Source: an uncultured bacterium
Lineage (GTDB): Bacteria; Patescibacteriota; Minisyncoccia; UBA6257; 2-01-FULL-56-20
Reading direction: 5' to 3'
DNA: 64,000 bases
NCBI GenBank assembly: GCA_963807165.1
Contig: CAWDZM010000001.1
Location: 417,521 to 481,520 of the forward strand
Shown: in pieces, positions 3,176-3,209 of the stretch
How positions within the stretch are numbered: the stretch's first letter is position 1
Layout: each line of letters begins with the position of its first letter
Position numbers and translations under genes: made by a program
The notes under the pieces: model-generated
What the model was told of the DNA's origin: nothing
Databases searched by the model: none
What the model saw: the letters and a program-made list of their open reading frames with translations, nothing else

Positions 3176-3209
3176 TTTAAAATAGATTTAATGGGTGACC
3201 TGTTATGCT
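3176..3209 (+). promoter_or_regulatory. Conserved promoter-like motif, copy 1 of 4.
   Basis: The sequence reads TTTAAAATAGATTTAATG, then an 11-nt spacer, then TATGCT. The same architecture recurs at 17093-17128, 47543-47580 and 52238-52276. Confidence 0.6.

What the first reader, a model, noticed from the sequence alone, without database searches (positions are those of the whole stretch)
3176..3209. Four-copy conserved promoter-like motif TTTTAGATAGNTTTAATG-N11-TAnnnT
Near-identical 18-mers occur at 3176 (+), 17128 (-), 47580 (-) and 52276 (-). Each is followed after exactly 11 nt by a TAnnnT hexamer (TATGCT, TATAGT, TATTAT, TACGCT). The spacing puts TTTAAT plus 11 nt in the role of a 17-nt spacer, with GATAG(T/A) at the -35 position. 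The four targets are the two tRNA-like sRNAs, pilC and a secreted S53 peptidase. Three copies sit directly after a terminator hairpin. A degenerate copy lies near 19691-19710. The element is probably a strong promoter for a specific sigma factor or a regulator binding site. It is far better conserved than the other promoters in the window, which are TATAAT or TGnTATAAT type.
Basis: seen in the sequence. Interest (0 to 1): 0.7.

Follow-up and report, generated by a model that had tools for sequence, protein, structure and literature searches.

The report
Conserved upstream promoter box in CPR bacteria
The repeated 18-base motif is real and is the upstream half of a rigidly spaced promoter type, shared by a lineage of tiny uncultured (CPR/Patescibacteria) bacteria, that starts transcription exactly at the first base of small tRNA-like RNAs or at the start codon of genes.

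Summary
The motif is real: four copies in 64 kb against 0.13 expected by chance. The gap to TAnnnT is 10 nt, not 11. The "degenerate copy" at 19691 is not a member.

Collection scans found the same 18-mer + N10 + TAnnnT about 100 times on GC-rich contigs. The named genomes among them are mostly Minisyncoccia/Paceibacterota MAGs; the rest are peat and soil metagenome contigs.

Features I did not search for also appear:
- An extended -10 (G at -14 in 71/84).
- A purine at the 7th nt after the -10 (82/84).
- An ATG or GTG at that exact base in 28/85 (leaderless mRNAs).
- Otherwise the first base of a structured, mostly tRNA-like RNA.

Ordinary promoters in the same contigs share the TGnTAnnnT-N6-start layout. 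They show no information across the -35 region and have better -10 hexamers. The box (-40 to -23) is therefore an add-on replacing -35.

Natural variants show a 7-4-7 layout (TTTwAnA / N4 / TTTAATG), like a pho box. My best reading is an activator-dependent promoter, possibly served by an OmpR/PhoB-type response regulator; box-type promoters sit between such a regulator gene and its kinase in 5 of 6 orthologous loci. The trans factor is unproven. No literature match was found.

The parts
3176..3193 (+). Upstream box, variant copy TTTAAAATAGATTTAATG (-40 to -23 relative to the predicted start)
   Evidence: Orthologous-type RNAs in other contigs carry similar variant boxes such as TTTAACAGAGTTTTAATC.
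3201..3209 (+). Extended -10, TGtTATGCT
   Evidence: Read from the sequence. Positions 26-27 = TG fit the clade consensus.
3216..3428 (+). Predicted transcript: a structured RNA with an embedded tRNA-like T-arm and a long stem, ending at a hairpin plus T-run (3393-3428). Predicted +1 = G3216.
   Evidence: ARAGORN calls an odd tRNA at 3227-3300. The fold gives -100 kcal/mol, z = -9.25. There is only a weak Rfam YrlA hit, 19.6 bits.
17109..17126 (-). Upstream box, exact copy (N = A)
17093..17098 (-). -10 hexamer TATAGT with no TG. Predicted +1 = G17086, giving a 25-nt leader to pilC.
17068..17076 (-). Second, proximal pilC promoter TGGTATTAT, followed by 6 nt and ATG 17061 (leaderless). It is conserved in relatives that lack the box.
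   Evidence: PilC start confirmed by a 100%-identical 402-aa database protein, P0121.
15853..17061 (-). pilC (T2SSF), first gene of a type IV pilus and pilin gene run extending down to about 7480
   Evidence: Pfam results.
47562..47579 (-). Upstream box, exact copy
   Evidence: Invariant in the alignment with L065, L061 and L087 while the flanks vary.
47546..47551 (-). -10 hexamer TATTAT, with G at -14. Predicted +1 = G47539.
47455..47539 (-). tRNA-like RNA. It has a 12-nt 5' leader (GCCGGUGGCGAU) that pairs with the 3' trailer, then a cloverleaf at 47527-47455 with G3.U70 and A73 and an oversized 'anticodon' loop.
   Evidence: Rfam tRNA hit of 27.4 bits, below the gathering score. Covariation in alignment A2.
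52257..52274 (-). Upstream box, exact copy
   Evidence: The same box stands in front of orthologous peptidase genes whose upstream flanks are unrelated (L138, L149, L167, L212).
52241..52246 (-). -10 hexamer TACGCT preceded by TGc. Predicted +1 = A52234, the A of the start codon (leaderless).
51095..52234 (-). Secreted S53 (sedolisin/kumamolisin-type) peptidase gene, predicted to be a leaderless mRNA
   Evidence: PDB sequence search, kumamolisin E=1.5e-19. A signal-peptide-like N-terminus is visible in the translation.

Best explanation
The 18-mer is the upstream element of a distinct promoter class used by a lineage of CPR/Patescibacteria bacteria; the named genomes are mostly Minisyncoccia/Paceibacterota MAGs.

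Layout: [TTTwAnA - 4 variable nt - TTTAATG] (-40 to -23), 10 nt usually ending in TGn, TAnnnT (-12 to -7), 6 nt, then a purine at +1.

Proposed mechanism:
1. RNA polymerase carrying the ordinary (primary-type) sigma reads the extended -10 and -10, exactly as at the bulk promoters of these genomes.
2. The box lies where a -35 hexamer would be. It is bound by a sequence-specific activator that recruits or stabilises the polymerase at promoters with poor -10 hexamers.
3. The activator is most likely a tandem head-to-tail dimer of a winged-helix OmpR/PhoB-type response regulator, as at a pho box.
4. Because the geometry is rigid, transcription starts 7 nt after the -10. This yields leaderless mRNAs (S53 peptidase; in relatives MazF-like toxins, a small membrane protein and others) or RNAs whose first base opens a stem (the tRNA-like RNAs).

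Shown in silico: the motif, its rigid spacing, its conservation across species, the position of +1, and its contrast with bulk promoters.

Inferred: that a protein other than sigma binds the box, that it activates, and that it is the response regulator.

My probabilities: promoter about 0.9; activator site rather than sigma element about 0.55; this OmpR-family regulator about 0.3-0.35. The overall confidence of 0.5 refers to the activator-dependent promoter model as a whole.
For: 1. Non-chance repeat: 5 matches against 0.13 expected.
2. In 84 unique instances on GC>=0.45 contigs, positions I did not search for carry signal. T is at box position 24, T at 26, and G at 27 (71/84), which is an extended -10. 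Position 41 is a purine in 82/84.
3. Spacing is rigid. TTTAATG-N10-TAnnnT occurs 91 times against 1-12 at other gaps.
4. ATG or GTG sits exactly at +1 in 28/85 instances against 0-6 at five of the six nearest offsets (21 at +4, unexplained), opening long ORFs. RNA genes begin at +1 with the first base of a helix.
5. In an orthologous and paralogous alignment, the box and the T, A and T of the -10 are invariant while the flanks and the middle of the -10 vary. The same box precedes S53, SSB and small-membrane-protein orthologues that have unrelated upstream flanks.
6. Bulk leaderless promoters of the same contigs (n=80) share TGnTAnnnT-N6-start. They have about zero information at -40..-19, and their -10 matches TATAAT better: mean 4.76/6 against 3.84/6 at box promoters. 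Canonical TTGACA is used by a minority (conserved example).
7. Copies not selected by my search (1-4 mismatches; 11 found against about 0.4 expected) vary at positions 4, 6, 8-11 and 18, and keep TTT.A.A and TTTAAT. That is a 7-4-7 layout. The pho box is defined as 18 nt = 7 + 4 + 7 (PMC4415409).
8. The only OmpR/PhoB-family regulator in 595 kb of box-bearing contigs (L107) has its stop codon inside a box. That box heads the downstream small-ORF and kinase genes. Loci fetched through homologues of that regulator carry box-type promoters at the same place in L238, L239, L243 and L244, making 5 of 6 loci with L107.
Against: - No experimental start sites, binding data or expression data exist.
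- Most of the roughly 100 instances were retrieved by exact match to the box. Their invariance is therefore by construction, and the unbiased sample of variants is small (about 15).
- The two half-sites are only 4/7 identical in the consensus form.
- The regulator gene was not found in the 64-kb window, and its presence in this genome is unknown.
- Its adjacency to a box could simply mean the two-component operon is one more target.
- The box is not conserved upstream of pilC in three related genomes, and none occurs in about 65 kb of those loci. Regulon membership is therefore labile, and the density in this window (4 per 64 kb) is above the roughly 1 per 50 kb seen elsewhere.
- The downstream genes have no obvious common function.
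Confidence: 0.5

Rival explanations
1. The box is the -35-region recognition element of a dedicated alternative (or second primary-like) sigma factor. Region 4 of that sigma reads part of the 18-mer, while its region 2/3 keeps the TGnTAnnnT specificity.
For: The spacing to the -10 is rigid. There is no TTGACA-like hexamer at box promoters: the best match is <=3/6 and is 1/6 in 74 of 85. The target set is discrete, about one site per 16-50 kb.
Against: The -10, extended -10, discriminator length and +1 are the same as at bulk promoters, whereas group 3/4 sigmas normally have their own -10. Conserved information spans 18 bp in two blocks one helical turn apart, more than one region-4 helix-turn-helix reads. 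No sigma gene was seen in 595 kb of box-bearing contigs, though that sample is far from complete.
Confidence: 0.2
2. The box is a constitutive strength element read directly by the core machinery: primary sigma region 4 in a non-canonical mode, alpha C-terminal domains, or intrinsic DNA bending by phased T-tracts. It would mark highly expressed genes and stable RNAs without any dedicated regulator.
For: T-tracts at -40..-37 and -30..-27 are in helical phase (sequence). Many targets are small RNAs, which are typically highly expressed. The box seems to compensate for weak -10 hexamers.
Against: UP elements lie at -40 to -60, not -40 to -23. Specific non-A/T positions (G6, G10, G18) and exact base identity are conserved, which bending alone does not need. 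Ordinary tRNA genes in the window lack the box. The primary sigma appears to use TTGACA when it uses a -35 at all.
Confidence: 0.12
3. The box is an operator for a repressor that occludes the -35 region of otherwise constitutive extended -10 promoters.
For: It overlaps the polymerase footprint. Extended -10 promoters can work without a -35, so the box is not formally needed for initiation.
Against: Repressor sites tolerate variable position, yet here the spacing is fixed to the base. Box promoters have worse -10 hexamers than box-less ones, which is the signature of activator dependence. The site is asymmetric.
Confidence: 0.05
4. It is not a promoter at all: a dispersed repeat or mobile-element end, a terminator-associated sequence, or chance.
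For: Three window copies follow terminator hairpins. The pilC copy looks like a lineage-specific insertion relative to related genomes.
Against: The hairpins and flanks are unrelated in sequence. There are no terminal repeats. Orientation always points at a gene or RNA that begins at +1. Chance expectation is 0.13. Low-GC hits from the collection scans lie mostly in AT-rich genomes and, where inspected, inside apparent coding sequence, and they behave differently.
Confidence: 0.03

Closest known systems
Pho box / PhoB-dependent promoters of E. coli, and the analogous PhoP and PmrA boxes of OmpR/PhoB-family response regulators
   Same: The pho box is an 18-nt element built as 7 conserved + 4 variable + 7 conserved nt (PMC4415409). 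From my own knowledge (Makino 1986/88; Blanco 2002, 2011): the direct repeats lie one helical turn apart; the box sits in place of the -35 hexamer, about 10 bp upstream of the -10; the promoters lack a usable -35; the two-component operon is commonly autoregulated. PmrA half-sites (YTTAAK) resemble the TTTAAT block; this too is from my own knowledge.
   Different: The sequence is unrelated to CTGTCAT. The half-sites are only weakly similar to each other in the consensus form. The targets have nothing to do with phosphate. No binding data exist. The suspected regulator is only linked by gene neighbourhood. Here the promoter also carries an extended -10 and fixes +1 so precisely that transcripts are leaderless.
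Extended -10 (TGnTATAAT) sigma-70 promoters
   Same: TGn precedes TAnnnT, a -35 hexamer is dispensable, and a purine start lies 7 nt downstream.
   Different: Classical extended -10 promoters have no conserved upstream box. Here a near-invariant 18-mer is added, and the -10 hexamer itself is poorer than in box-less neighbours.
Phage T4 middle promoters (MotA box + AsiA sigma appropriation)
   Same: A conserved box centred near -30 replaces the -35. It is combined with an ordinary TAnnnT -10 read by the host primary sigma (my own knowledge).
   Different: The MotA box is 9 bp (TTTGCTTTA-like) with a 12+/-1 bp gap. It needs phage proteins. The three hits in viral contigs all lie on low-GC contigs, consistent with chance matches.
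Leaderless-mRNA promoters of Actinobacteria and Deinococcus, and leaderless tRNA transcription in Nanoarchaeum equitans
   Same: The -10 sits 6-7 nt before the start codon, so the transcript begins with AUG or GUG. Some tRNA-like RNAs start at their position 1, so no 5' processing is needed. That parallels N. equitans, where promoters are placed so that tRNAs lack leaders (my own knowledge, Randau 2008).
   Different: Those systems have no comparable conserved upstream box. Here only a subset of leaderless promoters carries it, and ordinary tRNAs in the window do not.

Membership tests
Sigma-70-type promoter (extended -10 class) | -10 hexamer TAnnnT at a fixed position | tested here: met
   All 4 window copies have it. 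So do 11 copies with 1-4 mismatches that were not selected by my collection scans (that scan did require TAnnnT). T, A and T are invariant in the orthologue alignment.
Sigma-70-type promoter (extended -10 class) | TG at -15/-14 | tested here: met
   This was not part of the search pattern. G at -14 occurs in 71/84 and TG in 49/85. In the window, TG is present in 2 of 4 copies and G-14 in 3 of 4.
Sigma-70-type promoter (extended -10 class) | Transcription start (a purine) 6-8 nt after the -10 | tested here: met
   In silico only. A purine sits at the 7th nt in 82/84. A start codon sits exactly there in 28/85, and RNA stems begin there. Experimental mapping is not possible with these tools.
Sigma-70-type promoter (canonical) | -35 hexamer resembling TTGACA at 16-18 bp | tested here: not met
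   The best match is <=3/6, and it is 1/6 in 74 of 85 box promoters.
OmpR/PhoB-type response-regulator box (pho-box-like class II activator site) | About 18-22 bp made of two direct-repeat half-sites one helical turn apart (7+4+7) | tested here: inconclusive
   Variants keep positions 1-7 (TTTwAnA) and 12-18 (TTTAATG) and vary at 8-11. The half-sites are 4/7 identical in the consensus and 5-6/7 in TTTAAnA variants. The unbiased sample is small.
OmpR/PhoB-type response-regulator box (pho-box-like class II activator site) | Occupies the -35 region at a fixed distance from the -10 of a promoter that is weak on its own | tested here: met
   The box spans -40..-23 and the 10-nt gap is rigid. The -10 matches TATAAT 3.84/6 on average, against 4.76/6 at box-less promoters.
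OmpR/PhoB-type response-regulator box (pho-box-like class II activator site) | A cognate response regulator in the same genomes, typically autoregulated | tested here: inconclusive
   An OmpR-family regulator was found in L107, with a box between it and its kinase. Box-type promoters stand at the same place in 5 of 6 orthologous loci. None was found in the window. No genome-wide co-occurrence test was possible.
OmpR/PhoB-type response-regulator box (pho-box-like class II activator site) | Protein binding to the box and regulator-dependent activation | not testable with these tools
   This needs EMSA or DAP-seq and in vitro transcription.
Alternative sigma-factor promoter | A -10 element distinct from that of the housekeeping promoters | tested here: not met
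   Box and bulk promoters share the same TGnTAnnnT-N6-start geometry.
UP element | An A/T-rich element at about -40 to -60, upstream of a -35 hexamer | tested here: not met
   The box lies at -40..-23. Positions -69..-41 carry little information.
Dispersed repeat / MITE | Sequence similarity extending into the flanks, and terminal inverted repeats | tested here: not met
   Flanks and upstream hairpins are unrelated. Similarity ends at the box and the -10.
tRNA (for the downstream RNAs) | A cloverleaf with a 7-nt anticodon loop and a score above the Rfam tRNA gathering score | tested here: not met
   The cloverleaf is supported by covariation in 10/22 pairs. The loop is 8-11 nt, however, and the window copy scores 27.4 bits, below the threshold of 29. 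ARAGORN calls inconsistent anticodons.

The most novel reading that the evidence does not exclude
The box may define the first recognisable clade-wide regulon in CPR/Patescibacteria. In that reading, a single two-component response regulator docks on an 18-bp pho-box-like site in place of -35 and switches on a mixed set of targets.

The targets would be:
- A family of tRNA-like RNAs that carry the alanine identity set (G3.U70, A73) but cannot decode.
- Solitary MazF-type toxins.
- SSB, ComFC and type IV pilus (DNA-uptake) functions.
- Secreted hydrolases.

Transcripts would be made without 5' leaders, so neither ribosome-binding sites nor RNase P trimming are needed.
Probability: 0.25. Interest if true: 0.75.

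Novelty: new variant of a known kind. Interest (0 to 1): 0.6.

Why it matters
Almost nothing is known about transcription signals or regulation in CPR/Patescibacteria. These bacteria are mostly uncultured and have very few regulators.

This box is a sharply defined, easily searchable promoter signature, and it has three uses:
1. It lets start sites, leaderless genes and new small RNAs be predicted to the base in metagenomic assemblies.
2. It delimits a candidate regulon that can be tested with one purified protein and existing metatranscriptomes.
3. It flags an unannotated family of tRNA-like RNAs with alanine identity elements.

It also gives annotators a reason to re-call starts of genes that lack ribosome-binding sites in these genomes.

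Tried and rejected
- Exact-protein look-ups of the S53 peptidase and NusG found nothing. The source contig was recognised only later, through PilC (P0121, 726 kb).
- Rfam gave no family for either tRNA-like RNA, for the small RNA upstream of copy 3, or for the GGGGGTGGCA... RNA. The only hits were sub-threshold YrlA and tRNA matches.
Adding the -10 to the pattern for the metagenome scan fixed this.
- The viral scan returned three hits, all on low-GC contigs, consistent with chance matches.
- tBLASTn for sigma-70 regions 2-4 in 595 kb of box-bearing contigs found nothing.
- I tested whether the regulator operon lies just beyond the window's left edge, using synteny with L244 (YqeY-YbeY-FtsA-FtsZ-HtrA-...-regulator). 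The HtrA-like gene is not at window 1-465, so this is unsupported.
- A possible shared leader element 'AAAGGTCGAAA' turned out not to be specific to box promoters.
- Literature searches for the sequence and for CPR promoters, leaderless transcription or tRNA-like RNAs found nothing relevant.
- A competence-regulon reading (pilC, SSB, ComFC, secreted PLD-like enzyme, LTD proteins) was considered. It does not explain the toxins or the RNAs, and pilC orthologues lack the box.

Full report
**1. Observation**

The pattern TTTTAGATAGNTTTAATG has three exact matches, all on the minus strand: 17126-17109, 47579-47562 and 52274-52257. A fourth match with two mismatches lies on the plus strand at 3176-3193 (TTTAAAATAGATTTAATG). 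At three mismatches or fewer there are 5 matches against 0.13 expected, and none of 100 shuffles reaches 5.

Each of the four copies is followed by TAnnnT after 10 nt, not 11. The hexamers are TATGCT, TATAGT, TATTAT and TACGCT.

I do not count them.

The window is bacterial, with about 52% G+C. It encodes FtsZ/FtsA, GyrB, NusG, a type IV pilus cluster and DprA.

The stated targets are correct:
- Two tRNA-like RNAs.
- pilC, whose true start is ATG 17061. A 100%-identical 402-aa database protein on a 726-kb contig confirms this.
- An S53 peptidase (kumamolisin, E=1.5e-19).

**2. The motif is conserved across species**

A scan of one genome per species for the bare 18-mer returned mostly single chance hits in AT-rich genomes. 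One genome stood out: the Minisyncoccia MAG SPRUCE 130, with four exact copies.

Every hit in a genome of 49-62% G+C had TAnnnT after exactly 10 nt, except one with TTTAAT. These genomes were Paceibacterota or Minisyncoccia MAGs, unnamed MAGs, and two labelled otherwise.

One of these loci, L065, is syntenic with window 44.1-49.8 kb at about 82% identity. The window therefore comes from a relative of that MAG.

A metagenome scan for box + N10 + TAnnnT gave 115 loci. Most are peat and soil contigs of 45-59% G+C. The three hits in viral contigs all lie on low-GC contigs, consistent with chance matches.

**3. It behaves as a promoter with a fixed start site**

I analysed 84 unique instances on contigs with G+C >= 0.45. 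Positions that were not part of the search pattern carry information:
- T at box positions 24 and 26.
- G at position 27 (71/84), which makes an extended -10, TGnTAnnnT.
- G just after the -10.
- A purine at position 41, the 7th nt after the -10 (82/84).

The spacing is rigid. TTTAATG-N10-TAnnnT occurs 91 times, against 1-12 at gaps of 6-15.

At position 41 an ATG or GTG opens a long ORF in 28 of 85 instances. Counts at five of the six nearest offsets are 0-6; offset +4 gives 21, which I did not examine. This group includes the window's S53 gene (TACGCT-cggggt-ATG) and its orthologues, whose upstream flanks are unrelated.

In most other instances, position 41 is the first base of a helix of a structured RNA. 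In an alignment of the window's copy 3 with three homologous loci, all 18 box positions and the T, A and T of the -10 are invariant. The spacer, the middle of the -10 and the flanks vary.

These results place the box at -40 to -23. The fourth start should be 52234, not 52231.

**4. It is an add-on to the ordinary promoter of these organisms**

Leaderless genes are common in the same contigs. TAnnnT lies exactly 6 nt before the first start codon of 94 of 1165 ORFs, against about 20 at other offsets.

The 80 such promoters without the box compare with box promoters as follows:

| Feature | Box-less leaderless promoters (n=80) | Box promoters (n=85) |
|---|---|---|
| G at -14 | 57/80 | 71/85 |
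| Information at -40..-19 | about zero | the 18-mer box |
| Mean match of -10 to TATAAT | 4.76/6 | 3.84/6 |

A canonical TTGACA at 16-18 bp is modestly enriched among box-less promoters: >=4/6 in 20 of 79, against 4-12 at decoy spacings. One conserved TTGACT-N16-TAAAAT promoter lies about 110 nt upstream of copy 3.

So the polymerase and the sigma parts that read the -10 look the same in both classes. The box replaces a -35 and goes with weaker -10 hexamers, which is the usual signature of dependence on an extra contact.

**5. Architecture of the box**

Most instances were retrieved by exact match, so their invariance says nothing. Informative copies are those found incidentally in flanks, plus those found through protein homologues. 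In the flanks there are 11 with 1-4 mismatches, against about 0.4 expected. More came from the homologue-derived loci.

Examples:
- TTTAACAGAGTTTTAATC
- TTTAATAAAGATTTAATG
- TTTTAGAACGTTTTAATG
- TTTTAGATTTTTTTAATG
- CTTTAGAATTTTTTAATG
- GTTTAGATATATTTAATG

These keep TTTwAnA (positions 1-7) and TTTAAT(G) (positions 12-18) and vary at positions 8-11. That is a 7-4-7 layout with TTT(w)A cores 11 bp apart.

The same formal description applies to the E. coli pho box: 18 nt made of two 7-nt repeats separated by 4 nt (PMC4415409). From my own knowledge, the pho box sits 10 bp upstream of the -10 in place of the -35 and is bound by a head-to-tail PhoB dimer that contacts sigma region 4.

**6. A candidate trans factor**

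A tBLASTn search of 595 kb of box-bearing contigs found no sigma gene. It found one OmpR/PhoB-family response regulator, in L107.

That gene's last codons and stop codon (GTT TTT AGA TAG) lie inside a box. The box heads a 34-35-aa ORF and a histidine kinase.

I then fetched loci through homologues of this regulator at 57-71% identity. Four show the same regulator / small ORF / kinase order with a box-type promoter in the same gap: L238, L239, L243 and L244. L245 is degenerate. L241 has a different gene order and no box.

This fits an autoregulated two-component system, but it could equally be just another target. The regulator was not found in the window, and a synteny argument that it lies just outside the window failed.

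**7. What the box drives**

In the window:
- A 213-nt structured RNA (3216-3428).
- The pilC-pilin operon.
- An 85-nt tRNA-like RNA (47539-47455).
- The leaderless S53 peptidase gene.

In relatives:
- The same RNA families.
- SSB.
- PemK/MazF-like toxins, a DUF4258 protein and a Gp49/HigB-like protein.
- A ComFC-like protein (2-mismatch box).
- A secreted PLD-like enzyme.
- Lamin-tail-domain proteins.
- DUF167.
- A 50-96-aa membrane protein starting with GTG.

There is no single functional theme. A DNA-uptake flavour (pilus, SSB, ComFC) is noted but not sufficient.

Membership is labile. pilC orthologues at 85%, 77% and 68% identity have no box. All of them, and the window, share a proximal leaderless promoter TGGTATTAT-N6-ATG. 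The window's pilC box and the terminator before it are therefore a lineage-specific second promoter.

**8. Verdict**

It extends to a conserved promoter class in a CPR lineage.

I rate "promoter with +1 at the 7th nt after the -10" at about 0.9. "Activator site rather than sigma element" is about 0.55 against 0.2-0.25. "OmpR/PhoB-type regulator" is about 0.3-0.35.

I found no description of the motif in the searchable literature. I class it as a new variant of a known kind, namely a class II activator-box or extended -10 promoter. It is of moderate to high interest because it opens CPR transcription and a candidate regulon to direct test.

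Noticed in passing
window 47455-47539 (-); also L061, L065, L087, L131, L137, L144, L158-L162, L168, L196, L218: This is a family of tRNA-like RNAs whose cloverleaf is supported by covariation. In all 13 aligned sequences G1-C72, G2-C71, G3.U70 and A73 are invariant, which is the alanyl-tRNA synthetase identity set. The 'anticodon' loop, however, is 8-11 nt (UUUnnnCAA) with no conserved triplet. ARAGORN calls them Ser, Leu or '???'. 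One subfamily has a 12-14-nt 5' leader that pairs with the 3' trailer; another starts at tRNA position 1. No Rfam family matches.
   Followed up: partly
window 3216-3428 (+): This is a 213-nt RNA between ftsA and ybeY. It has a tRNA-like T-arm and acceptor module, and a downstream segment (about 3359-3383) complementary to its own D/anticodon region. Together they give a long stem (-100 kcal/mol, z = -9.25). The only Rfam signal is a sub-threshold YrlA (Y-RNA-like) hit. Relatives occur in L148, L207, L175, L146 and L128, each behind a box or a box variant.
   Followed up: partly
window ~47580-47655 (-), promoter 47662-47689: A roughly 70-nt RNA with a conserved canonical promoter (TTGACT-N16-TAAAAT plus an A/T-rich upstream stretch) and its own terminator. 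It lies directly in front of the box of the tRNA-like RNA. The whole two-unit module is conserved in L065, L061 and L087. No Rfam family matches.
   Followed up: partly
window 47301-47373: A long, nearly perfect inverted repeat (about 27 bp per arm, GAGAGGGAGGCATTCTCCAACC...) lies just downstream of the tRNA-like RNA. The only matches are spurious microRNA-family hits.
   Followed up: no
window 17061-17076 (-); L246, L249, L250, L251: pilC has a conserved proximal promoter TGGTATTAT followed by 6 nt and the ATG. PilC is therefore predicted to be translated from a leaderless mRNA in all these genomes.
   Followed up: yes
595 kb of related contigs (L003-L234 subset) and the window: Leaderless genes are common in this lineage: TAnnnT lies exactly 6 nt before the start codon in 94 of 1165 ORFs, against about 20 background. 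Bulk promoters are extended -10 with no -35 information. This is relevant to gene-start calling in CPR genomes.
   Followed up: partly
L107 6306-6979 (-); L238, L239, L243, L244 about 10000-10900: This is a conserved operon of an OmpR-family response regulator, a 34-35-aa ORF (MKEILEAVLTDP...) and a histidine kinase. The regulator's stop codon overlaps or abuts a box-type promoter that heads the small ORF and the kinase.
   Followed up: partly
L183 3970-4040; L058, L204, L105: A roughly 70-nt RNA (GGGGGUGGCAyAGUGCUGGAUC...CACCCCC) starts at +1 of a box promoter. Its upstream flank is conserved (GGTCAAGAAATCG). Rfam gives no match even at E<=1.
   Followed up: no
L132, L135, L152, L163, L184, L205: Solitary PemK/MazF-like toxin genes with N-terminal extensions are expressed as leaderless mRNAs from box promoters. 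No obvious antitoxin gene lies between the promoter and the toxin.
   Followed up: no
L192 and L194 versus L061, L144 and L162: In some contigs the box promoter and the first approximately 13 nt (GCCGGTGGGCGTG) are followed directly by a lamin-tail-domain gene. In others the tRNA-like RNA sits between them. This suggests gain or loss of the RNA module inside one transcription unit.
   Followed up: no
L107, L226, L164, L152, L239, L243, L245 leaders; window 55600-55630: A recurrent 'AAGGTCGAAA'-like string occurs in 5' leaders downstream of several box promoters. A wider count showed the core is not specific to them. It may be a ribosome-binding-site variant.
   Followed up: partly
window 48081-48098 (+): This is a partial copy of the first half of the box (TTTTAGATAGG) with no second half and no -10. 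It lies about 45 nt upstream of a canonical TTGACA-N16-TATTCT promoter at 48141-48168.
   Followed up: no
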